Made by a program: the position numbers and the translations under genes. Below are positions 6,245 to 23,024 of a DNA stretch of 31,772 nt, in pieces (within the stretch, counting starts at the first letter, position 1; every line of letters begins with the position of its first letter). The notes beneath the pieces were generated by a model that was not told the DNA's origin, did no database searches, and worked only from the letters and a program-made list of their open reading frames with translations. The DNA comes from Bacteroidota bacterium (lineage in GTDB: Bacteria > Bacteroidota > Bacteroidia > B-17B0 > Aurantibacillaceae), in contig JBKDJY010000081.1 in the NCBI GenBank assembly GCA_046345275.1, positions 1 to 31,772 on the forward strand, read 5' to 3'.

Positions 6245-7534
6245 TTAATAATTCATCAAAGATTCTATTTCATCCGCTTCTAATGGAATATTTTTCATTA
6301 AATCAATATTTCCATCTTTGGTAATAACGATGTTATTTTCTAAACGAATTCCCAAACCTTCTTCTGGAATGTAAATACCTGGTTCAACCGTAAAGGCATT
6401 TCCAATTTGCATGGGCTCATAAAACAAACCCACATCATGCACATCTAAACCAATGAAATGAGAAGTGCCATGCATAAAGTATTTTTTATATGCGGGCCAT
6501 TCTGGGTTTTGATTTTTAACATCTGTTGTTTTTAACAAACCCAATTGTAATAATTCTTCCGTCATTAAATCGCCCACGCTCTTATTATATTTTTCAAATG
6601 TATTGCCAGCTTTAAGCAAATTAGTTGCAGCTTTCATCACTTTTAAAACGGAATGATAAACCTCTTTTTGTCGTTTAGAAAACTTGCCATTAACGGGCAA
6701 ACACCTTGTTAAATCACTCGCGTAATTAGAATATTCCGCGGCTACATCTAATAAAATCACATCCCCATCTTTACAAATTTTGTTATTATCTACATAGTGT
6801 AAAACACAAGCACTAGGTCCACTGGCAATGATTGGCCCATAAGCAAATCCTCGACTTTTATTTCTTATAAATTCGTGTATGAGCTCGGCTTCAATTTCGT
6901 ATTCGGCAATGCCAACTTTAATAAACTTTAATAAACGACGAAATCCTTTCTCAGTAATATTGCAAGCCTGTTGCATTAATTCAATTTCAATGGGATGTTT
7001 AACAGAACGGATGCGGTGCAAGATTGGTGCAGAACGCTGCATGGTATGTAATGGAAATTGCAATTTAATGCGATTATTAAAACGCATTTCAGCAGTTTCC
7101 ATATCGATATAGCGGCGTGTATGTTCATTACTATTTAAGTAAATATTTTCTGCTTGAAAAATGAGCGACTTCAATATTTTATCAAATTCCGAAATCCAAT
7201 AAATATGATCAATACCGCTTACTTTTTTAGCTTCATCTTTATTTAATTTAGCACCTTCCCATACGGCAATTAAATCACTTGTTTCTTTTAAAAATAGAAC
7301 CTCTTTATGTTTGCCATCTTTCACGTCAGGAAACAAAAGCAAGATTGAATCTTCTTGATCGATGCCTGATAAATAAAATAAATCACTATTCTGAATAAAT
7401 CCAAATGAGCCATCACCATTGGTGGGTAATATATCATTGCTCACAAAAAGGGCTAAAGAGTTTGGCTTTAAATGCTTGATATAGTTAGCTCTATTGTCCT
7501 TAAATAAATTATTGTTTATTGTTTCGTATTTCAT
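6245..7534 (-). CDS. pepP: Xaa-Pro aminopeptidase (M24B family)
   Basis: 429 aa. An AMP_N-like N-terminus is followed by M24 metal-ligand blocks (DVAAEY..YASD, HGTSHFIGLDVHD, EPGIY, IRLEN). Confidence 0.88.
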   Translation of the reverse strand: MKYETINNNLFKDNRANYIKHLKPNSLALFVSNDILPTNGDGSFGFIQNSDLFYLSGIDQEDSILLLFPDVKDGKHKEVLFLKETSDLIAVWEGAKLNKDEAKKVSGIDHIYWISEFDKILKSLIFQAENIYLNSNEHTRRYIDMETAEMRFNNRIKLQFPLHTMQRSAPILHRIRSVKHPIEIELMQQACNITEKGFRRLLKFIKVGIAEYEIEAELIHEFIRNKSRGFAYGPIIASGPSACVLHYVDNNKICKDGDVILLDVAAEYSNYASDLTRCLPVNGKFSKRQKEVYHSVLKVMKAATNLLKAGNTFEKYNKSVGDLMTEELLQLGLLKTTDVKNQNPEWPAYKKYFMHGTSHFIGLDVHDVGLFYEPMQIGNAFTVEPGIYIPEEGLGIRLENNIVITKDGNIDLMKNIPLEADEIESLMNY

Positions 7535-7938: not shown

Positions 7939-9357
7939 TTGAAAAATATTAAAGAATACTTTAATGAACTGGCCTCCAAAAGGAAGAGACGAATAATTAC
8001 AAATTACTATTGGAAAGAAATTACAAATTATTGCAATTATTTTTCTCACCAAGACAACTCCGTTTTAGAAATTGGATGTGGAAGTGGTGATTTAATTGCA
8101 ACTATTTCCGGGAAAGAAAAAACAGGCATTGATTTTAGCAAAGGGCAAATTGCTTGGGCAAAAGAAAAACATGACGGTAAAAATGTAGAGTTTTTATTAA
8201 TGGATGCTGCCAATATCACTTTAACAAAAACATTTGATTATATCATCATCAGCAATTTAATTGGCTATTTGGATAACATACAAGTCGTTTTTGAGGAAGT
8301 AAAAAAAGTAAGTCATGCCAATACCAAAGTAATTGTTCAATACTATAATTCGCTGTGGGAACCTGTTTTAAAGTTTGCTGAGTTTCTTGGTTTAAAAACA
8401 AAAACGCCTACACAAAATTGGTTGAATTCTAAAGACGTCAATAACTTATTATTTATTTCTGGATTTGATGTTTATAGAAATAGTAAACGCTTTATTTTTC
8501 CTTTTTATGTTCCTTTAATTGCAGAAATATTTAATTTGGTTTTAGCCAAATTCCCTTTCTTTCGTTTTTTTAGTTTAAATAATTATTCGTTTGCAAAACC
8601 ATTACCTTTAAGTGATGAATCAGATTATCAAACTAAATACAGCACCACAGTTGTTATTCCAGCACGTAATGAAAGTGGTAATATAGAAAATGCCATCACG
8701 CGTTTACCAAAATTTGGAAAGCATGTTGAAATTATTTTTATTGAAGGAAACAGCACTGATGATACTTGGGATAAAATCAAGGAAGTACAAAAAAAATATG
8801 CTTCTACTCATGATATAAAAATAGGTCAACAAAAAGGAAAAGGAAAGGCAGACGCTGTGCGCGAAGGTTATAAAATTGCTACTGGAGATATATTAATGAT
8901 TTTAGATGCTGATTTGACGGTTCCACCAGAAGAGTTACCAAAATTTTACAATGCCATTGCTGGCAGCAAAGGTGATTTTATTAATGGCACCCGGTTGGTC
9001 TATCCAATGGAAAAAGAAGCCATGCGCTTGTTAAACTATTTAGGAAATCATTTTTTCAGTTGGGCATTTACCTGGTTGCTCGAACAGCGTTTTAAAGATA
9101 CACTTTGCGGAACGAAAGTTATGTTTAGAGAAGATTATATTAAGCTGACTAAAAATCGCAGCTACTTTGGCGAATTTGATCCTTTTGGAGATTTTGATTT
9201 ATTATTTGGCGCCTATAAATTAAATCTTAAAATTGTAGAAGTGCCCATTCGTTATAGGGAACGCACGTATGGCGAAACAAATATTTCTAGATTTAAGCAT
9301 GGCATCATTTTATTGCGCATGTGTGCGTTTGCAAGCAGAAAATGTAAATTTATTTAA
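7939..9357 (+). CDS. Bifunctional class I SAM-dependent methyltransferase / family 2 glycosyltransferase
   Basis: 472 aa. The N-terminal half has the SAM motif VLEIGCGSGD. The C-terminal half has GT2 motifs VVIPARNESGNIE and ILDADL. The start is TTG, and the next in-frame ATG is far downstream. Confidence 0.8.
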   Translation: MKNIKEYFNELASKRKRRIITNYYWKEITNYCNYFSHQDNSVLEIGCGSGDLIATISGKEKTGIDFSKGQIAWAKEKHDGKNVEFLLMDAANITLTKTFDYIIISNLIGYLDNIQVVFEEVKKVSHANTKVIVQYYNSLWEPVLKFAEFLGLKTKTPTQNWLNSKDVNNLLFISGFDVYRNSKRFIFPFYVPLIAEIFNLVLAKFPFFRFFSLNNYSFAKPLPLSDESDYQTKYSTTVVIPARNESGNIENAITRLPKFGKHVEIIFIEGNSTDDTWDKIKEVQKKYASTHDIKIGQQKGKGKADAVREGYKIATGDILMILDADLTVPPEELPKFYNAIAGSKGDFINGTRLVYPMEKEAMRLLNYLGNHFFSWAFTWLLEQRFKDTLCGTKVMFREDYIKLTKNRSYFGEFDPFGDFDLLFGAYKLNLKIVEVPIRYRERTYGETNISRFKHGIILLRMCAFASRKCKFI

Positions 9358-15825: not shown

Positions 15826-18432
15826 ATGATAGATAAAAAAACACTTTCTGAACGTGATATTTGCACCAAGTTTATTACTCCTGCGGTTGAAAAAGCGGGT
15901 TGGAATAGACTGACACAGCTATTGGAGGAAGTTTCGTTCACGGACGGAAAAATTTATGTTAGAGGTAAACTAACGGCAAGAAGCAATAAAAAACGCGCCG
16001 ACTACATCCTGTATTTTAAACCCAACATTCCTGTTGCAATTATTGAAGCGAAAGACAATAAACATTCGGTGAGAGCCGGTATTCAACAGGCTTTGGACTA
16101 TGCTCAAATACTCGACATTCCTTGTGTTTTCAGCAGCAACGGTGACGGCTTTTTATTTCACGACCGCACGGCAACAGACGGAAATATTGAAACCGAAATT
16201 GCTATTGACGACTTTCCTACTCCCGAACAACTTTGGGAGAAATACAAAAAATACAAAGGCATCACAACGCCAACGGCTGAAAAAATTGCTTCGCAAGATT
16301 ATTACTTTGATGGAACAAACCGCAAACCAAGATACTATCAACAAATTGCAGTAAACAGAACTGTTGAAGCCATTGCCAACGAACAGAACCGAATTATTCT
16401 AGTAATGGCAACAGGTACAGGTAAAACTTATACTGCTTTTCAAATTATTTACCGTTTATGGAAATCAAGAAGTAAAAAAAGAATTTTGTTTCTTGCAGAC
16501 AGAACAGCTTTAATTGACCAAACAAGAAAGGGCGATTTTAAGCACTTTAAAGATAAAATGACTATCATTAAAAAGAAAGTCGTTTCTAACAAAGATGGTA
16601 AAGACGAACTAGTTTCCAATAAAAAAAGGGGAATTGATACTGAAGATAAAGCCTACGAAGTATTTCTTGGTTTATACCAAGGCTTAACTAATAATGAACC
16701 AGGTATTGAGGATGCTTATAAAGATTTTTCGCCTGACTTTTTTGACTTGATTGTAATTGACGAGTGTCACAGAGGAAGTGCAAAAGAAGACAGCAGTTGG
16801 AGAGAAATTTTATCCTATTTCAAAAACGCTACGCATATTGGTTTAACTGCCACGCCAAAGGAAACCAAAGAAACAAGCAACACCGAATATTTTGGTGACC
16901 CTGTTTATACCTATTCATTGAAACAAGGTATTGATGATGGTTTCCTTGCTCCTTATCGTGTAGTAAGAATTGGTTTGAATATAGATGCAGAAGGCTGGCG
17001 ACCAGATCAAGGCAAGACCGACAAAGATGGAAATGAATTTGAAGACAGAGTTTATAATCGCAAAGACTTTGACCGCAGTTTGGTAATTGAAGAACGAACA
17101 GACTTAGTTGCAAAAAAACTTACCGAGTTTTTAAAAGGTTACGACCGTTTTGCAAAAACGATTGTGTTTTGTGTGGACATTGACCACGCTGAACGAATGA
17201 GAACATCATTAGCCAAACAAAATGCTGATTTAGTTTCCGAGAATTACAAATACGTTATGCAAATAACTGGCGACAATGATGAAGGCAAACGGGAATTAGG
17301 CAACTTCATAAATCCTGAAGAAAAATATCCTGTCATTGCGACTACTTCTGAATTAATGACTACTGGCGTTGATGCTCAAACTTGTAAAGTAATTGTGTTG
17401 GATGCCAACATCAATTCAATGACCAAGTTCAAACAAATTATTGGTAGAGGAACGCGTATCAATGAAGAATTCGGAAAACTCTATTTCACCATTCTTGATT
17501 TTAGAAACGCAACCGATTTGTTTGCCGACAAAGATTTTGATGGCGACCCAATTCGAGTAAAACCAGTTTCGCAAGACGAAGATTTATCATTGGTGGTTAT
17601 TGAAGAAGAAGAAAACACTGTAACAGTTTTAGATGAAGCTACAGGCGAAGAAATTGTATTTGAAAAAGCACAAATTCGTTATCCTGATGGTTCAAAATTA
17701 GGAGGCAATTGGGTTGCTAGAGAACCTGATGCAAGAAGAGAAAAAATTTATGTAAATGGTGTTGATGTTTCTGTTTTGGTGAGCCGTGAAATATATTTTG
17801 ACCAACACGGAAAACCAATTACTACAAGTTTAAAAGACCATACCAAAGAAATCATCAAAGAAAACTTTGCTTCGTTAGATGACTTTTTAAATAAATGGAA
17901 CACCACCGCCCGCAAAGAAGCCATCATTGCTGAATTGCAAGAACAAGGCGTAATGGTGGAAGCTTTGTATGATGCCGTAAACAAAGACCTGCCCGCCTTT
18001 AAAGAAGGGAAATTTTATACTTATGTAATTGAATGCAAAGACGGAACTTTTTACAAAGGACATACACAAGATTTAAAAAGAAGATTTGATGAACACAAAA
18101 ATGGATTAGGAGCTGAATGGACTAAAAATCATAAAGTGAGAGATTTAGTTCATTTTGAAGTTTTTAATACAAAGGTAGAAGCAATTAATAGAGAAGATTA
18201 TTTTAAATCTGGTCGAGGTAGAGAATGGTTAAAAGCTGAAAGAGAGAAAGGATTGTTGAACGGCAGGCAGGCGGGAGTGGATTTGTTCGACTTGATTTGT
18301 CACGTTGCATTTGACCAACCACCATTAACACGCCAGGAAAGAGCCAATAACGTAAAAAAGCGAAACTATTTTACCAAGTATGGGCGACCAAGCCAAAAAA
18401 GTATTAGAGGCCTTGTTAGACAAATACGCTGA
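15826..18432 (+). CDS. hsdR: Type I restriction enzyme R subunit (EcoEI-like), main reading frame; carries an internal GIY-YIG insert and ends prematurely after a frameshift
   Basis: N-terminal PD-(D/E)xK nuclease region (ADYILY...AIIEAKD). SF2 motor motifs are MATGTGKT, VIDECHRG and QIIGRGTR. The C-terminal domain begins EcoEI_R_C-like (DLFDLICHVAFDQPPLTRQERA). From about 18382 the frame reads unrelated residues (GRPSQKSIRGLVRQIR*). Confidence 0.9.
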   Translation: MIDKKTLSERDICTKFITPAVEKAGWNRLTQLLEEVSFTDGKIYVRGKLTARSNKKRADYILYFKPNIPVAIIEAKDNKHSVRAGIQQALDYAQILDIPCVFSSNGDGFLFHDRTATDGNIETEIAIDDFPTPEQLWEKYKKYKGITTPTAEKIASQDYYFDGTNRKPRYYQQIAVNRTVEAIANEQNRIILVMATGTGKTYTAFQIIYRLWKSRSKKRILFLADRTALIDQTRKGDFKHFKDKMTIIKKKVVSNKDGKDELVSNKKRGIDTEDKAYEVFLGLYQGLTNNEPGIEDAYKDFSPDFFDLIVIDECHRGSAKEDSSWREILSYFKNATHIGLTATPKETKETSNTEYFGDPVYTYSLKQGIDDGFLAPYRVVRIGLNIDAEGWRPDQGKTDKDGNEFEDRVYNRKDFDRSLVIEERTDLVAKKLTEFLKGYDRFAKTIVFCVDIDHAERMRTSLAKQNADLVSENYKYVMQITGDNDEGKRELGNFINPEEKYPVIATTSELMTTGVDAQTCKVIVLDANINSMTKFKQIIGRGTRINEEFGKLYFTILDFRNATDLFADKDFDGDPIRVKPVSQDEDLSLVVIEEEENTVTVLDEATGEEIVFEKAQIRYPDGSKLGGNWVAREPDARREKIYVNGVDVSVLVSREIYFDQHGKPITTSLKDHTKEIIKENFASLDDFLNKWNTTARKEAIIAELQEQGVMVEALYDAVNKDLPAFKEGKFYTYVIECKDGTFYKGHTQDLKRRFDEHKNGLGAEWTKNHKVRDLVHFEVFNTKVEAINREDYFKSGRGREWLKAEREKGLLNGRQAGVDLFDLICHVAFDQPPLTRQERANNVKKRNYFTKYGRPSQKSIRGLVRQIR
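17988..18277 (+). mobile_element. In-frame GIY-YIG nuclease module (about 96 codons) inserted in hsdR, bounded by GC-rich imperfect inverted repeats
   Basis: The translation KFYTYVIECKDGTFYKGHTQDLKRRFDEHKNGLGAEWTK...FNTKVEAINREDYFK has the GIY..YIG..R..E layout. The insert is visibly more AT-rich than the flanking hsdR. The termini cctgcccgcc (17988-17997) and ggcaggcagg (18262-18271) pair 9/10. Confidence 0.6.
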
Positions 18433-18592
18433 TGAAGGCATCACAAATATTGAAAGCATTGAAGTATTGAGAGTAAATCCATTTGATGAATTTGGAAGTC
18501 CTATGGAAATTTTCAGTGAGTTTGGAAGCAAAGAAAATTATTTGCAAGCCGTAAAAGAATTAGAAATTGAATTGTATAAAAATATAGGATAG
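18380..18592 (+). CDS. hsdR: C-terminal remainder of HsdR (rest of the EcoEI_R_C-type domain) in the next reading frame
   Basis: GDQAKKVLEALLDKYADEGITNIESIEVLRVNPFDEFGSPMEIFSEFGSKENYLQAVKELEIELY continues the domain begun in the upstream frame. Removing one G from GGG at 18382-18384 joins ...FTKYG to DQAKKV. Confidence 0.8.
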   Translation: MGDQAKKVLEALLDKYADEGITNIESIEVLRVNPFDEFGSPMEIFSEFGSKENYLQAVKELEIELYKNIG

Positions 18593-18656: not shown

Positions 18657-19094
18657 ATGCCATTTGTTAAAGTATATATCCATTTTGTTTGGAGTACAAA
18701 AAATAGATATCCATTCTTAGATTCAAAAGAATTGAGACTTAAAACATGGAATCATATAAGAGAAAATGCCAAAGAGAAAGGAATTTTTATTGATTTCATA
18801 AATGGATATTCAGACCATTGCCATTGTTTAGTTTCATTAAGTATTGATCAGACTATTCAAAAAGTCATGCAATTGATTAAAGGTGAATCTTCCTATTGGA
18901 TAAACAAACACGGTTTGACAAAAGAAAAGTTTGAATGGCAAGATGAGTATTTTGCAGTTTCAGTTTCGGAATCTATAATTGACAAAGTCAGAGAATATAT
19001 TAAAAATCAAGAAGAGCATCATAGCAAAAAAACATTTCAGGAGGAATATGATGAATTTATTAGCAAATATGAATTTGAGAAATTTAAAGGATAA
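18657..19094 (+). CDS. IS200/IS605-like Y1 (HUH) transposase, REP-associated tyrosine transposase (RAYT) type
   Basis: 145 aa. N-terminus YIHFVWSTKNR. The HUH motif is in SDHCHCLVSL. KGESSYWIN is present, and the C-terminal helix EYIKNQEEHH carries the catalytic-Tyr signature (YI..Q). Inverted REP hairpins flank the gene. Confidence 0.85.
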   Translation: MPFVKVYIHFVWSTKNRYPFLDSKELRLKTWNHIRENAKEKGIFIDFINGYSDHCHCLVSLSIDQTIQKVMQLIKGESSYWINKHGLTKEKFEWQDEYFAVSVSESIIDKVREYIKNQEEHHSKKTFQEEYDEFISKYEFEKFKG

Positions 19095-19272: not shown

Positions 19273-20709
19273 ATGAGCAACATATCAGGCATAATAAAAA
19301 GCATTCAAAACATCATGTGGCAAGACACAGGCTTGAATGGCGACGCACAGCGCATTGAGCAATTAGGCTGGATGCTTTTTCTAAAAATATTTTCAGATAA
19401 AGACAAAGAGCTAGAGTTGCTGGACGACAAATACACATCTCCAATTCCCGACAAATTTCATTGGGTAAAAGAAAAAGGAAATTGGGCGGGTGATGATGAA
19501 GGCATGACAGGCGATGAATTGTTGGAGTTTGTAGACAGACAATTGTTTCCAGCACTTCGCAATTTAGATTTAAGCACCGGCAACCAACGTGCAGTAATTG
19601 TGAGAGAAGTATTTGAAGGCAACAACAACTATATGAAAAGCGGCATCAACATTCGCAAAGTGTTGAACAAGCTCAACGAAATTGATTTTAACATAGCCAA
19701 AGACCGCCACGCTTTTGGTGAATTGTACGAAATCATTTTAAAGGAATTACAAAGTGCAGGTAAAAGCGGAGAGTTTTATACGCCCAGAGCCATCACACAA
19801 TTTATTACCGAAACAATCAATCCGCAACTGGGCGAAAAAGTGCTTGACCCTGCTTGCGGAACAGGTGGTTATTTGACTTGTGCCATTGAGCATTTAAAAA
19901 AACAAGCTAAAAATGTAAAAGAACGCAAAAGTATTGAAGACAACATTGCAGGTTGGGAATACAAACCATTACCGTATTTGTTGGCAACAACCAATCTCAT
20001 TTTACACGACATTGAAATACCAAACATCAAATTTGGCGATGCTTTAGACCAACCGTTAAGCAACTTTACCGAAAAGCACCGAGTAAATGTCATATTAGCA
20101 AATCCGCCATTTGGTGGTATTGTAGCCAACAACAACGAAACTAATTTTCCACAAACTTATCGTACAAAAGAAAGTGCCGACTTGTTTTTAATTTTAATGA
20201 TTCACTTATTAAAGCAAGATGGACGAGCAGGAATTGTTTTGCCCGATGGCAGTTTAACAGGCGATGGCGTAAAGCAACGCATCCGACAAAAGTTGTTGGA
20301 AGATTGTAACCTACATACGATTATTCGTTTGCCAAATTCCGTTTTTCAACCTTACGCAACGGTGGCTACCAATTTGTTGTTTTTTGATAAGGGCAAACCC
20401 ACTAAAGACATTTGGTATTACGAACACCGTATGCCCGAAGGGTATAAAGCATACAACAAAACACGACCAATTAAAGTTGAAGAATTTGAACCGATTAAAA
20501 AATGGTGGAACAAACGCAAAGAAAGTGATATTGCGTGGAAAGTAAACATTAAAACGATTATTGAACGTGGTTACGATTTGGATATTAAGAATCCTACCAA
20601 ACCCGAAGAAGAAAAAGAATACAATAGTGCAGAGCTGATGGAAATGCTAAATGCTTCTTTTGAGAAAAGCCATCAATTGTTGAACCAACTTAAAAAGGCG
20701 ATGAAATGA
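19273..20709 (+). CDS. hsdM: Type I restriction-modification N6-adenine DNA methyltransferase subunit M
   Basis: 478 aa. HsdM N-terminal domain. The SAM motif is LDPACGTGGYL and the catalytic motif is LANPPFGG. Confidence 0.93.
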   Translation: MSNISGIIKSIQNIMWQDTGLNGDAQRIEQLGWMLFLKIFSDKDKELELLDDKYTSPIPDKFHWVKEKGNWAGDDEGMTGDELLEFVDRQLFPALRNLDLSTGNQRAVIVREVFEGNNNYMKSGINIRKVLNKLNEIDFNIAKDRHAFGELYEIILKELQSAGKSGEFYTPRAITQFITETINPQLGEKVLDPACGTGGYLTCAIEHLKKQAKNVKERKSIEDNIAGWEYKPLPYLLATTNLILHDIEIPNIKFGDALDQPLSNFTEKHRVNVILANPPFGGIVANNNETNFPQTYRTKESADLFLILMIHLLKQDGRAGIVLPDGSLTGDGVKQRIRQKLLEDCNLHTIIRLPNSVFQPYATVATNLLFFDKGKPTKDIWYYEHRMPEGYKAYNKTRPIKVEEFEPIKKWWNKRKESDIAWKVNIKTIIERGYDLDIKNPTKPEEEKEYNSAELMEMLNASFEKSHQLLNQLKKAMK

Positions 20710-21590
20710 GTTCGTCGTTAAAAATATCCATTCGTTTTTTTAATGATCGCGAAGTACGTGCCGTTTGGGATGAGCAAGATGCCAAATGGTGGTTTTCTGT
20801 ATTGGATGTTGTGGGTATTCTGAACGAAGAAAACGACTACAACAAAGTAAGGAACTATTGGAAATACCTCAAAGCCAAGTTAAAGAAAGAGAATAACGAA
20901 CTGGTTAGTGCCACTACCCAGTTGAAATTTTTAGCACCCGATGGCAAAATGCGTTTAGCAGATATGCTTGACAGCGATGGGGTAACCGCATTAGCTAAAA
21001 ATTTCCCCAACAATAGGGCAATGAAATTTTTAGATTGGTTTTTATACAGCGACACTAGCATTGACGGGCAAAGTAAGAAAAAAGCCTACACCTTGTTTGA
21101 AAGCAATTTGATAAACGAATTTGAGGTAGGCACCACCAAAGGTTTACAACAAATACACGCTTATTTGTTTGGTGGCTTGTATGAATTTGCCGGGCAAATT
21201 AGAGAAAAAAGCATTTCGAAAGGGGGCTATCAGTTTGTGTATGCACAGCAATTAAAAAACACTTTGCGAAAAATTGATGCCATGCCACAAACTACTTTGG
21301 ATGAAATTATTTTGAAATACACTGAAATGAACAAGGCACACCCCTTTATGGAAGGCAATGGCAGAAGCACCAGAATATGGCTGGATATGATGCTAAAAAA
21401 ACAACTTAAAAAATGTGTAGACTGGAGCAAAATAAAAAAAGATCAGTATATGAATGCCATGATAATTAGTACCGTTGATTACACGGTGCTACTGCAACTC
21501 ATTACAAAGGCGCTGACCCCTAAAATTAAGGACCGAGAAATGTATATGAAAGGCATTGATTATTCTTATTATTATGAGGAAAACAATTAA
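20706..21590 (+). CDS. Bro-N-like DNA-binding domain fused to a Fic (AMPylase/filamentation) domain
   Basis: 294 aa. The N-terminus FNDREVRAVWDEQDAKWWFSVLDVVGIL...YWKYLKAKLKKE...QLKFLAPDGKMRLAD is Bro-N/DinD-like. The C-terminus has the canonical Fic active site HPFMEGNGRSTR. The ATG overlaps the hsdM stop (ATGA). Confidence 0.85.
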   Translation: MSSSLKISIRFFNDREVRAVWDEQDAKWWFSVLDVVGILNEENDYNKVRNYWKYLKAKLKKENNELVSATTQLKFLAPDGKMRLADMLDSDGVTALAKNFPNNRAMKFLDWFLYSDTSIDGQSKKKAYTLFESNLINEFEVGTTKGLQQIHAYLFGGLYEFAGQIREKSISKGGYQFVYAQQLKNTLRKIDAMPQTTLDEIILKYTEMNKAHPFMEGNGRSTRIWLDMMLKKQLKKCVDWSKIKKDQYMNAMIISTVDYTVLLQLITKALTPKIKDREMYMKGIDYSYYYEENN

Positions 21591-21602
21591 ACAGGTATTT
21601 AT

Positions 21603-23024
21603 ATGAGTTGGAAGAAAGTAAAGCTAAAGGAAATATTGAAACAATACCGAATAGAACTTTTGGTACAAAATGATATTGAATATAAACAAGTGACAATATC
21701 AAAATATGATGGTATCACTTTTAGAGGAACTAGAATAGGAAGAGAAATAGGGCGTAAAAGACAATTTCAAATTGACCTTAAAAGGTTTCCCAATACGTTA
21801 ATGTTCGTGAGGCAAGGTGTTCAAGATGGCTCAATAGGGATTGCACCGATCGAGGTTGAGGGTTGCATAGCAACTGAAAATATGCCAATGTTCTCCATTG
21901 AAGGAATAAATTTGGAATACCTAAAACTTCTTTTGAAGTCACCATATTTTAATGATGAATTAAATAAAATTCAAACAACTGGCTCAGCTCAAAAATCCAT
22001 TCATGAAAGAGAAATATTGGAAATTGAAATTCCATTTCCTGATTTTGAAGAGCAAGAAGATATTGTTCGCCAATTGTCAAGTAAAAAAAATAACTCATTA
22101 GAAATCTCAACTGAACTCAGCCACCAACTCACCTTAGTAAAAAAACTCCGACAGCAATTATTGCAGGATGCTGTGCAAGGCAAATTGGTGGCTCCCTCTC
22201 CTTTGGAGAGGGCGGGGGGAGAGGTCGAACCAGCAAGCGAATTGCTCAAAAAGATAAAGGAGGAACGCCTGAATAGGGTTGGGTTTCAACCCGACCCCAA
22301 AAAAGATATTGGGCTAAAGCCCAACAAATTTTCTAACCATAGCTCGGGGTTAAAACCCCGAGCTATTAAAGAACTACCACCCATCAAACCCGAAGATATT
22401 CCTTTTGAAATTCCTGAAAATTGGGTGTGGTGTAGGTTGGGGGAGATTGCAGAAATTGGAACAGGAGCAACTCCATTAACTTCAAATCCTGAATATTATG
22501 AGAATGGAGACATTCCTTGGATTACAAGTTCAGCTACTAATAATTTATTTATAATTGAACCAGAATTATATATTACCGAAAAGGCATTAAAAGAGACAAA
22601 TTGCAAGGTTTACCCCGCAGGAACTTTAGTTGTCGCTATGTATGGACAAGGTAAAACTAGGGGTCAAATCACCGAATTGAATTTCCCTGCTGCAACTAAT
22701 CAAGCTTGTGCCACAATTACTTTATTTTTTAATGAATTCACTTTGAGAAAATATGTGAAATTGTTTTTTCAAAAAATCTATAATGAAATTAGAGAATTGG
22801 CGCAAGGTGGAGCACAACCAAATTTGAATATGGGAAAGGTTAGAGATACTATAATTTCCCTTCCTCCACTTGCAGAACAAAACCGAATCGTTCAAAAATT
22901 AGACGAGCTAATGCAGTATTGCAATGAGTTAGAAACAAGCATCAAACAAAGTGAATCGCAAAATTCAACACTACTGCAACAGGTTTTGAAAGAAGCATTG
23001 AGGAAAGAACCTTTGGAGGTGTAA
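21603..23024 (+). CDS. hsdS: Type I restriction-modification specificity subunit S
   Basis: 473 aa. Two target-recognition domains are separated by a conserved helical spacer (LRQQLLQDAVQGKLV ... EPASELLKKIKEE ... IPFEIPENWVWCRLGEI). A second conserved helix lies at the C-terminus (LAEQNRIVQKLDELMQYCNELE). Confidence 0.9.
   Translation: MSWKKVKLKEILKQYRIELLVQNDIEYKQVTISKYDGITFRGTRIGREIGRKRQFQIDLKRFPNTLMFVRQGVQDGSIGIAPIEVEGCIATENMPMFSIEGINLEYLKLLLKSPYFNDELNKIQTTGSAQKSIHEREILEIEIPFPDFEEQEDIVRQLSSKKNNSLEISTELSHQLTLVKKLRQQLLQDAVQGKLVAPSPLERAGGEVEPASELLKKIKEERLNRVGFQPDPKKDIGLKPNKFSNHSSGLKPRAIKELPPIKPEDIPFEIPENWVWCRLGEIAEIGTGATPLTSNPEYYENGDIPWITSSATNNLFIIEPELYITEKALKETNCKVYPAGTLVVAMYGQGKTRGQITELNFPAATNQACATITLFFNEFTLRKYVKLFFQKIYNEIRELAQGGAQPNLNMGKVRDTIISLPPLAEQNRIVQKLDELMQYCNELETSIKQSESQNSTLLQQVLKEALRKEPLEV
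22193..22363. repeat. Four REP-like hairpins embedded in-frame in the hsdS central spacer
   Basis: Hairpins: ccctctcc-ttt-ggagaggg (22193-22211); gggttgggtt-tc-aacccgaccc (22275-22296, one G.T); ttgggc-taaa-gcccaa (22308-22323); agctcggggtt-aa-aaccccgagct (22340-22363, perfect 11 bp). The third shares the GGC-TAAA-GCC core of the RAYT-flanking REPs. Confidence 0.75.

What the first reader, a model, noticed from the sequence alone, without database searches (positions are those of the whole stretch)
20706..21590. Bro-N/Fic fusion gene translationally coupled inside the type I R-M operon: a candidate R-M-guarded toxin
The ORF starts at an ATGA overlap with hsdM and ends 12 nt before hsdS, so it must be co-expressed with the modification and specificity genes. 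The C-terminal half has an intact Fic active site (HPFMEGNGRSTR). The N-terminal half is a Bro-N/DinD-like domain of the kind found in phage antirepressors. I could not find an obvious inhibitory (S/T)xxxE(G/N) helix in the protein or a small antitoxin ORF next to it. By analogy with the PrrC anticodon nuclease, which is held latent by the EcoprrI type I enzyme, this may be a second-line abortive-infection effector. It would be released when phage anti-restriction proteins attack the R-M complex. Fic genes in hsd operons appear in annotations, but as far as I know their mechanism is not established.
Basis: partly seen in the sequence, partly recalled or inferred. Interest (0 to 1): 0.62.

Follow-up and report, generated by a model that had tools for sequence, protein, structure and literature searches.

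The report
Self-inhibited Fic toxin cassette in restriction operon
The gene between hsdM and hsdS is real and encodes a Bro-N domain fused to a Neisseria-type (class III) Fic AMP-transferase. It does carry its own C-terminal inhibitory helix and belongs to a very common, horizontally mobile single-gene family that usually lives outside restriction operons, so it looks like a passenger and not a toxin guarded by the restriction enzyme.

Summary
Observation confirmed. ORF 20706-21590 (294 aa) overlaps the hsdM stop by ATGA, ends 12 nt before hsdS, and joins a Bro-N domain to an intact Fic core (HPFMEGNGRSTR).

Interpretation only partly supported.
- The C-terminal half is an NmFic-type class III Fic: it scores above the NCBIfam equivalog cut-off and is 57-60% identical to the solved NmFic.
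- It ends in ...GIDYSYYYEE, which aligns without gaps to the NmFic inhibitory helix S182-E186.
- The exact fusion is already PADLOC candidate PDC-S04 (E 2e-157).
- The family is very large and patchy in Bacteroidota. Only about 12% of the 80 closest loci, and 4 of 15 in an even phylum sample, touch type I R-M genes, in at least four different arrangements.
- Two relatives lost hsdM and hsdS but keep an intact gene.
- In this hsdM family the M|S junction is a slot that is usually empty, or filled by YhcG nuclease, a Y1 transposase or this Fic.

Most likely it is an autonomous, self-inhibited gyrase-AMPylating (inferred) growth-arrest or defence cassette riding in the operon.

Extra and unexplained: the gene is bracketed by locus-specific direct repeats in about a quarter of loci. 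The scan had already noted this same fusion in other genomes.

The parts
15826..18592 (+). hsdR (EcoEI-type). It carries an in-frame GIY-YIG insertion and a frameshift near 18380-18432, so it reads as two ORFs.
   Evidence: One search lists ORFs 15826..18432 and 18380..18592. One search finds ResIII, SWI2_SNF2, HSDR_N, GIY-YIG (residues 729-795), and EcoEI_R_C split across the two ORFs (profile positions 61-102 and 103-163).
18657..19094 (+). IS200-like Y1 transposase (RAYT-like) between hsdR and hsdM
   Evidence: Y1_Tnp E 2e-28. Relatives of this operon carry the same gene either between R and M or between M and S.
19273..20709 (+). hsdM, type I methyltransferase
   Evidence: N6_Mtase E 3e-73 and HsdM_N. 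80 relatives at 83-97% identity.
20706..21590 (+). Bro-N / class III Fic fusion gene (294 aa), PADLOC PDC-S04
   Evidence: PDLC04841 matches residues 5-293 at E 2.3e-157. NF046029 (NmFic equivalog) scores 247 bits against a cut-off of 230.
20751..21044 (+). Bro-N domain (residues 16-113)
   Evidence: Pfam PF02498: 28.2 bits against a cut-off of 25.6. The model gives a beta3-alpha2-beta2-alpha fold. Foldseek hits in the viral library are BRO/Bro-N proteins over about 105-125 columns, E 6e-4 to 5e-2. Mean identity across 66 relatives is 74%, with many invariant residues.
21054..21587 (+). NmFic-type Fic domain (residues 117-294)
   Evidence: phmmer against PDB: NmFic E 3e-60, aligned 117-291 without gaps. 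Foldseek: NmFic, E. faecalis, Mycoplasma mycoides and H. pylori class III Fic, 48-60% identity.
21339..21374 (+). FIC active-site motif HPFMEGNGRSTR (H212-R223)
   Evidence: This exact motif occurs in 168 of 199 family members.
21564..21581 (+). C-terminal inhibitory-helix motif S287-Y-Y-Y-E291-E292, equivalent to NmFic S182-Y183-Y184-Y185-E186-G187
   Evidence: Gap-free alignment to NmFic. Residue numbering comes from the PDB titles S182A/E186A, E186G and Y183F. GIDYSYYYEE is present in about 195 of 199 members.
20686..20712 (+). Left copy of the junction repeat: the hsdM 3' tail plus ATGAGTT
   Evidence: 18 of 26 positions match the right copy; 14 of 24 upstream positions match, a level reached by only 3 of 2000 random positions.
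21584..21609 (+). Right copy of the junction repeat: an eroded copy of the hsdM tail placed in front of the hsdS ATG. It accounts for the '12-nt spacer'.
   Evidence: Relatives show fresher copies: L114 30 of 34, L120 19 of 23, and the YhcG cassette of L133 27 of 28.
21603..23024 (+). hsdS, specificity subunit
   Evidence: Methylase_S, two stretches. In empty-site relatives its ATG overlaps the hsdM stop directly.

Best explanation
The ORF encodes a two-domain protein: an N-terminal Bro-N (DNA- or protein-binding) module and a C-terminal class III Fic AMP-transferase of the NmFic type.

**Self-inhibition (shown by homology).** Like NmFic, it carries its own C-terminal inhibitory helix (S287...E291). 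It therefore needs neither an antitoxin nor the R-M enzyme to stay latent.

**Activity (inferred from NmFic, 57-60% identical).** The helix glutamate blocks productive ATP binding. Relief of inhibition, in NmFic by monomerisation and auto-AMPylation of the helix tyrosine (here Y288), would let the enzyme AMPylate GyrB/ParE and arrest DNA replication and growth.

**Mobility (shown).** The gene is a horizontally mobile single-gene cassette, PADLOC candidate PDC-S04. In this lineage it landed in the ATGA stop-start junction between hsdM and hsdS, a slot that relatives leave empty or fill with other cargo. It is therefore co-expressed with M and S.

**Role (inferred).** It is most likely an independent second-layer growth-arrest or abortive-infection module, with Bro-N as the trigger-sensing or targeting part. 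It benefits from riding in a defence operon but is not controlled by the Hsd complex.
For: **Identity**
- NCBIfam NmFic equivalog above its cut-off.
- PDB phmmer E 3e-60 with a gap-free alignment through ...SYYYE.
- Foldseek top hits are all class III Fic.
- The Fic motif and the C-terminal GIDYSYYYEE are invariant.
- PADLOC PDLC04841 matches full length.

**Autonomy from R-M**
- 10-11 of the 80 closest genome loci, and 4 of 15 full-length hits in an even sample of 401 Bacteroidota genomes, lie next to type I R-M genes.
- Most of the rest stand alone, commonly with intergenic gaps of 100-500 nt and unrelated neighbours.
- R-M-embedded members occur as M-Fic-S, S-Fic-M, S-Fic-R and M-Fic, scattered over a tree that ignores taxonomy.
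- L002 and L003 keep the hsdM tail and an intact Fic gene but have lost hsdM and hsdS.

**Slot**
- Of 69 operons with hsdM at 83-97% identity, about 50 have hsdS overlapping the hsdM stop, 8 carry YhcG/DUF1016, 3 carry this Fic and 3-5 carry a Y1 transposase at the same junction.

**Host side, not phage**
- No full-length copy in 50,697 phage records or in IMG/VR.

**PDC origin by 'guilt by embedding':** bioRxiv 10.1101/2024.01.29.577857.
Against: - No biochemical or phage data exist for this fusion.
- The last position of the inhibitory motif is E, not G/N, and NmFic Y188 has no counterpart.
- One NmFic tetramer-interface residue (E156) is V261 here, so regulation may differ.
- The AF2 model has low confidence for the helix (pLDDT below 50 at 288-294) and the flap.
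- The GyrB target is extrapolated from a 57-60% identical homologue.
- A PDC-S04 hit deleted in E. coli NILS69 showed no defence. That hit was described as toxin-antitoxin-like, so it is probably another subfamily.
- The protein is unusually conserved (69-94% across orders), which is not typical of fast-evolving defence genes.
- The repeated, tightly coupled embedding in R-M operons could still reflect a functional link.
Confidence: 0.62

Rival explanations
1. PrrC-like guard. The Fic protein is held inactive by binding the HsdM/S(/R) complex. It is released as an abortive-infection toxin when phage anti-restriction proteins (Ocr/ArdA/Stp-like) attack the complex.
For: - ATGA coupling to hsdM and a 12-nt gap to hsdS.
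- Type I R-M genes are the most frequent neighbour family of the fusion: Methylase_S 5, N6_Mtase 4 and HSDR_N 3 of 148 flanking proteins, with no other family above 3.
- At least four independent, tightly packed embeddings.
- The same genome has a second type I operon with a RhuM-N/Doc-type Fido gene embedded.
- The PrrC precedent.
Against: - About 85-88% of close relatives have no R-M gene nearby. PrrC, by contrast, is described as almost exclusively embedded.
- An intrinsic inhibitory helix is present and invariant.
- L002 and L003 lost hsdM and hsdS but keep an intact gene.
- R-M-embedded and solitary proteins are not distinguishable on the tree.
- hsdR of this very operon is frameshifted.
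Confidence: 0.12
2. Selfish or housekeeping passenger with no defence role. The cassette is a mobile, self-restrained gyrase modulator (or an addiction-type element) that persists by horizontal transfer. It lands in R-M operons only because those junctions tolerate insertions and travel well.
For: - High conservation and a patchy, taxonomy-independent distribution.
- Bracketing by locus-specific direct repeats in 18 of 75 loci, against 2 of 114 control genes.
- The same slot also holds a Y1 transposase.
- One PDC-S04 deletion gave no defence phenotype.
Against: - Enrichment next to R-M genes and in PADLOC's embedded-gene survey.
- Single-gene Fic defence (SoFic) is established elsewhere (abstract of PMC12249575 and title of 10.1101/2022.05.11.491447).
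- Both domains are under strong purifying selection.
Confidence: 0.2
3. R-M regulator. The Fic domain AMPylates an Hsd subunit (or a topoisomerase acting with the translocating enzyme) to tune restriction, for example restriction alleviation.
For: Only the operon position and co-expression.
Against: Most family members have no R-M partner. The closest characterised homologue targets GyrB. Nothing in the sequence points to Hsd proteins.
Confidence: 0.04

Closest known systems
NmFic (Neisseria meningitidis class III Fic AMP-transferase; PDB 2G03, 3S6A, 3ZLM, 5CGL)
   Same: 57-60% identity over residues 117-291 without gaps. Same FIC motif and the same C-terminal ...SYYYE inhibitory helix, with the glutamate (E186 = E291) and the buried tyrosine (Y183 = Y288). 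Scores above the NCBIfam equivalog cut-off.
   Different: Has an extra 115-residue N-terminal Bro-N domain. G187 is replaced by E292. Y188 is absent because the protein ends 2 residues later. Interface residue E156 is V261. Activity and target are untested.
PADLOC phage defence candidate PDC-S04 (model PDLC04841)
   Same: Full-length match, residues 5-293 to profile positions 3-291 of 292, E 2.3e-157. PDCs were defined as genes embedded in BREX, DISARM or type I R-M systems.
   Different: It is a candidate only, with no validated function. Other PDC-S04 models cover Fic proteins without Bro-N.
PrrC anticodon nuclease in the EcoprrI type IC operon
   Same: An accessory toxin gene embedded in a type I R-M operon.
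   Different: Unrelated fold (ABC ATPase plus nuclease). PrrC is almost always embedded and is kept latent by the R-M enzyme. This Fic is mostly solitary and has its own inhibitory helix.
SoFic (Shewanella oneidensis single-gene Fic defence system)
   Same: A single-gene Fic-domain protein linked to anti-phage defence by AMPylation (abstract of PMC12249575).
   Different: Only a marginal match (PADLOC SoFic E 3.9e-4). Earlier scan notes describe SoFic as a class II Fic with a winged helix-turn-helix; I did not check this here.
YhcG/DUF1016 PDDEXK nuclease genes embedded in type I R-M operons
   Same: They occupy exactly the same ATGA junction after hsdM in 8 of 69 related operons, with the same duplicated hsdM tail.
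   Different: An unrelated protein family.
Bro-N proteins of phages and DinD-like proteins
   Same: The N-terminal domain matches Pfam Bro-N. It also matches the N-terminal part of PADLOC PDC-S13 (PDLC04920, E 1.9e-26, profile positions 5-107 of 286). Relatives' genomes hold 273-277 aa proteins with this N-domain (PDLC04841 N-terminal part, E 1e-13 to 6e-26) and a weakly DinD-like C-terminus.
   Different: In those proteins Bro-N is joined to antirepressor or DinD-like C-termini, not to an enzyme. The fusion itself was not found in phage collections.

Membership tests
Class III Fic AMP-transferase (NmFic type) | FIC active-site motif HxFx(D/E)GNGRxxR | tested here: met
   HPFMEGNGRSTR at residues 212-223. 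Conserved in the family.
Class III Fic AMP-transferase (NmFic type) | Inhibitory helix at the C-terminus carrying [S/T]xxxE[G/N] (definition: PMC5033356) | tested here: inconclusive
   S287-YYY-E291 aligns gap-free to NmFic S182-E186 and is invariant in about 195 of 199 members. The last position is E292, not G/N. The model's confidence is low there.
Class III Fic AMP-transferase (NmFic type) | Whole-domain similarity above the curated equivalog threshold | tested here: met
   NF046029: 247 bits against a cut-off of 230, covering profile positions 3-177 of 177.
Class III Fic AMP-transferase (NmFic type) | Tetramer-interface residues used for oligomeric control (NmFic E102, E156) | tested here: inconclusive
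   E102 corresponds to E207 (kept). E156 corresponds to V261 (not kept). Positions are derived from the alignment and the mutant names.
Class III Fic AMP-transferase (NmFic type) | AMPylation of GyrB Tyr109 and auto-AMPylation of the helix tyrosine | not testable with these tools
   Biochemistry is needed. Known for NmFic only.
Bro-N domain (PF02498) | Profile match above the gathering score, and the Bro-N fold | tested here: met
   28.2 bits against 25.6. Foldseek hits to BRO/Bro-N proteins are weak (E 6e-4 to 5e-2) but consistent.
PADLOC PDC-S04 | Full-length HMM match | tested here: met
   PDLC04841, E 2.3e-157, residues 5-293.
PrrC-type R-M-guarded effector | Gene embedded in a type I R-M operon | tested here: met
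   hsdM - fic - hsdS with an ATGA overlap and a 12-nt gap.
PrrC-type R-M-guarded effector | Family found almost exclusively embedded in type I R-M systems | tested here: not met
   10-11 of 80 closest loci and 4 of 15 in the phylum sample are next to R-M genes. Decayed operons keep an intact gene.
PrrC-type R-M-guarded effector | Latency through binding to the Hsd complex and activation by anti-restriction proteins | not testable with these tools
   Needs co-purification and phage or Ocr challenge.
Class I FicT/FicA toxin-antitoxin | Adjacent small antitoxin gene supplying the inhibitory helix | tested here: not met
   No small ORF lies between hsdM, fic and hsdS. The inhibitory motif is in cis.

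The most novel reading that the evidence does not exclude
The Bro-N/Fic gene is a new kind of autonomous one-gene mobile cassette. It inserts at gene junctions while duplicating 20-350 nt of the local target, so both neighbours keep their ends and their stop-start coupling. It serves as a self-inhibited sensor-effector: Bro-N senses a phage or DNA cue, and the Fic domain AMPylates gyrase. Type I R-M junctions would be just one favoured landing site.
Probability: 0.2. Interest if true: 0.6.

Novelty: new member of a known kind. Interest (0 to 1): 0.36.

Why it matters
The result corrects a recurring misreading. First-stage readers in several genomes flagged this fusion as a Fic toxin without an inhibitory element. 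It is in fact a class III, self-inhibited enzyme.

It also gives figures for one well-sampled R-M family on how accessory genes occupy the hsdM|hsdS junction. The slot is usually empty, is filled by alternative cargos, and keeps a duplicated coupling signal.

Finally, it shows that operon embedding alone is weak evidence for a PrrC-style functional dependence. If the fusion proves to be a defence gene, it would extend the NmFic gyrase-AMPylation mechanism to phage defence in Bacteroidota.

Tried and rejected
1. BLASTP of the protein against the three RhuM-type genes embedded in the genome's second R-M operon found no similarity.
2. A search of 1.84 billion representatives with the Bro-N half alone, looking for other domain partners, was not informative. 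The best 150 hits were fragments or frameshifted pieces of the same family.
3. I looked for an empty site for a solitary locus (L028) among 30 relatives, but they were too distant.
4. tRNA-targeted integration was rejected: only 2 of 60 loci have a tRNA gene directly upstream.
5. Explaining the flanking repeats as attC-like hairpin sites fails as a general account. Only 4 of 15 repeats fold better than shuffles (L049 z -9.1, L028 -4.5, L075 -3.1, L025 -2.9), and the others have z of -1.6 or weaker.
6. Phage origin was rejected: no full-length copy in phage records or IMG/VR.
7. A literature search for 'Bro-N' with 'Fic' found nothing on the fusion.
9. The sigma-70 promoter scan is not informative for Bacteroidota. 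I used only its terminator part.
Full report
**1. Observation**

- The window holds a co-directional type I R-M cluster:
  - hsdR at 15826-18592, read as two ORFs because of a frameshift, with a GIY-YIG domain inserted in its C-terminal domain;
  - a Y1 (IS200-like) transposase at 18657-19094;
  - hsdM at 19273-20709;
  - the ORF in question at 20706-21590;
  - hsdS at 21603-23024.
- The ORF's ATG overlaps the hsdM stop as ATGA, and 12 nt separate its TAA from the hsdS ATG.
- No + strand terminator-like site lies between the three genes.
- Pfam finds Bro-N (residues 16-113, 28.2 bits, cut-off 25.6) and Fic (144-230, 50.4 bits).

**2. What the protein is**

- The C-terminal 178 residues are not a generic Fic domain.
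  - They score 247 bits against the NCBIfam equivalog for the Neisseria meningitidis adenylyltransferase NmFic (cut-off 230), covering the whole profile.
  - They align without a gap to the solved NmFic chains at E 3e-60.
  - A model built on 67 sequences (mean pLDDT 73.9) finds only class III Fic proteins at the top of the PDB: NmFic, E. faecalis Fic, Mycoplasma mycoides Fic and H. pylori Fic, at 48-60% identity.
- Class III Fic proteins carry the inhibitory helix at their C-terminus. The motif is [S/T]xxxE[G/N], and its glutamate pairs with the second arginine of the FIC motif (PMC5033356).
- The query ends ...KGIDYSYYYEENN and NmFic ends ...KGIEQSYYYEG.... Using the mutant names in the PDB titles (S182A/E186A, E186G, Y183F), S287, Y288 and E291 correspond to S182, Y183 and E186.
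- GIDYSYYYEE is present in about 195 of 199 family members and the FIC motif is conserved, so the helix is a selected feature.
- Differences from NmFic: Y188 has no counterpart, and the interface residue E156 is V261.
- The N-terminal domain folds as beta3-alpha2-beta2-alpha. It weakly but consistently matches BRO/Bro-N proteins in the viral structure library.
- The N-terminal domain is as conserved as the enzyme half: 74% against 76% mean identity.

**3. Already catalogued**

- PADLOC model PDLC04841 (PDC-S04) matches residues 5-293 at E 2.3e-157.
- PDCs are untested candidates defined by being embedded in BREX, DISARM or type I R-M systems (bioRxiv 10.1101/2024.01.29.577857).
- One PDC-S04 hit deleted in E. 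coli NILS69 gave no defence phenotype. It was described as toxin-antitoxin-like, so it is probably a different subfamily.
- I found no paper on the Bro-N/Fic fusion itself.

**4. Distribution**

- The protein search saturated at 8000 clusters. The best 120 were 82-100% identical and about 294 aa long.
- In an even sample of 401 Bacteroidota genomes, 15 carry the full-length fusion; counting shorter Fic-only hits as well, 13 of 180 genera have a match.
- A quick tree mixes Bacteroidota orders with Chlorobiota and Ignavibacteriota, so transfer is frequent.
- The fusion is absent as a full-length gene from 50,697 phage records and from IMG/VR.

**5. How often it sits in R-M operons**

- Among the 80 closest loci, 10-11 have type I R-M genes in the fetched flanks by iterated profile search: L001, L002, L003, L010, L016, L023, L032, L034, L060 and L069.
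- Among the 15 hits in the phylum sample, 4 do, including this genome.
- Type I subunits are nevertheless the commonest neighbour family: Methylase_S 5, N6_Mtase 4 and HSDR_N 3 of 148 flanking proteins, with nothing else above 3. By a rough estimate (own inference, not a computed test) this is about ten-fold above the frequency of such genes in a genome.
- The embedded cases have different gene orders (M-Fic-S, S-Fic-M, S-Fic-R, M-Fic). They fall in at least four places on the tree, among solitary members.
- Most of the other loci are solitary, commonly with intergenic gaps of 100-500 nt and unrelated neighbours.
- In the window's own clade, L002 has an HsdR-N/HsdM-C fusion stub and no hsdS. 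L003 keeps only the last 60 nt or so of hsdM. Both keep an intact gene of 293-294 codons.
- This pattern fits an autonomous, self-restrained passenger. It does not fit a toxin that depends on the Hsd complex to stay latent.

**6. The slot**

- I fetched 80 operons whose hsdM is 83-97% identical to this one. hsdS could be seen downstream in 69 of them:
  - about 50 have hsdS overlapping the hsdM stop by 4 or 1 nt (empty site);
  - 8 carry a YhcG/DUF1016 PDDEXK nuclease starting at the same ATGA;
  - 3 carry this Fic (L114, L120, L122);
  - 3-5 carry a Y1 transposase.
- In filled sites the last 23-34 nt of hsdM, including ATGA, are repeated in front of the next gene:
  - 27 of 28 for the L133 YhcG cassette;
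  - 30 of 34 for L114;
  - 19 of 23 for L120;
  - 18 of 26 (eroded) in the window.

**7. Unexplained extra**

- The same feature appears far from R-M genes. In 18 of 75 loci the Fic ORF is bracketed by direct repeats scoring at least 40 bits (13 score at least 80). Shuffled controls reached at most about 24 bits.
- Control genes in the same loci show far fewer such repeats: 2 of 114 genes two or three positions away, and 4 of 71 immediate neighbours.
- The repeats are 23-350 nt long and 83-100% identical. They are unrelated between loci.
- One is the 5' end of a DprA-like gene. There the upstream copy is a 45-codon stub whose TGA overlaps the Fic ATG, and the downstream copy starts the full gene on the Fic stop.
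- Some repeats are dispersed palindromic elements (L049, L028, L075), but most are unstructured.
- tRNA targeting is rare.
- One case is an isolate genome and the copies have diverged, so this is not an assembly artefact.
- I cannot name the mechanism.
- An earlier scan note reported a fic gene bracketed by about 50-bp repeats in another genome. I did not check that locus.

**8. Mechanism**

*Shown*
- Domain identity.
- An intact catalytic motif.
- A conserved cis inhibitory motif.
- Operon coupling.
- Mobility.
- Independence of the family from R-M genes.

*Inferred from NmFic*
- The helix glutamate blocks productive ATP binding.
- Auto-AMPylation of the helix tyrosine and loss of oligomerisation relieve inhibition.
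- The active enzyme AMPylates GyrB (and probably ParE) and stops replication.

*Inferred from context*
- A defence or growth-arrest role, with Bro-N as the sensing or targeting module.
- The same Bro-N type is joined to other C-termini in PADLOC PDC-S13 and in 273-277 aa, weakly DinD-like proteins.

**9. Verdict**

- This is an ordinary member of a known but uncharacterised candidate family.
- The 'no inhibitory helix' statement is wrong.
- The PrrC analogy is not supported by comparative data, although it has not been excluded experimentally.
- The scan has met this same fusion before in several other genomes.

Noticed in passing
L001-L080 (e.g. L050 5550-5899 / 6971-7319; L007 5860-5984 / 6869-6993; L049 5760-5891 / 7050-7181; L028 5815-5954 / 6891-7031): The Bro-N/Fic gene is bracketed by locus-specific direct repeats of 23-350 nt (83-100% identical) in 18 of 75 loci, against 2 of 114 control genes in the same loci. 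The repeats are unrelated between loci and only some are palindromic. The mechanism is unknown.
   Followed up: partly
Same genome, contig C86 = L081 3085-11012 (minus strand): A second EcoEI-type type I operon in the same genome carries three embedded genes, all tightly packed. The order is hsdM, two RhuM-family genes (PADLOC PDC-S05), hsdS, a RhuM-N fusion to a Doc-type Fido domain (HSFSDGNKR; PDC-S23), and hsdR.
   Followed up: partly
L108-L187 (relatives of hsdM); window 20706 junction: The hsdM|hsdS ATGA junction of this R-M family is a recurrent cargo slot. It holds YhcG/DUF1016 nuclease in 8 of 69 operons, a Y1 transposase in 3-5 and Fic in 3. Each cargo comes with a duplicated copy of the last 23-34 nt of hsdM, so the next gene keeps the stop-start overlap.
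   Followed up: yes
L007 6876-7337; L037, L017, L015, L018 (DprA-like gene): A 150-aa DprA/SLOG-like gene (MIKESIGNTDLLK...), or remnants of its 5' end, flanks the Fic gene in at least 8 of 80 loci. This is a second recurrent landing context besides type I R-M.
   Followed up: partly
window 15826-18592: hsdR of this operon is split by a frameshift near 18380-18432 and carries an in-frame GIY-YIG domain. The restriction arm may therefore be inactive while M and S are intact. Other notes of this scan already cover this.
   Followed up: partly
L002 1101-1652 and L003 2900-2958: Decayed versions of this operon. L002 has an in-frame HsdR(1-126)/HsdM(417-478) fusion stub and no hsdS. L003 keeps only the hsdM tail. 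Both are followed by an intact Fic gene.
   Followed up: yes
L194 515-1348, L195 514-1347, L196 989-1810: These are 273-277 aa proteins in relatives' genomes. Their N-terminal Bro-N domain is similar to the one here, and their C-terminal region is weakly DinD-like (far below the NCBIfam cut-off). They may correspond to PADLOC PDC-S13, which I did not test.
   Followed up: partly
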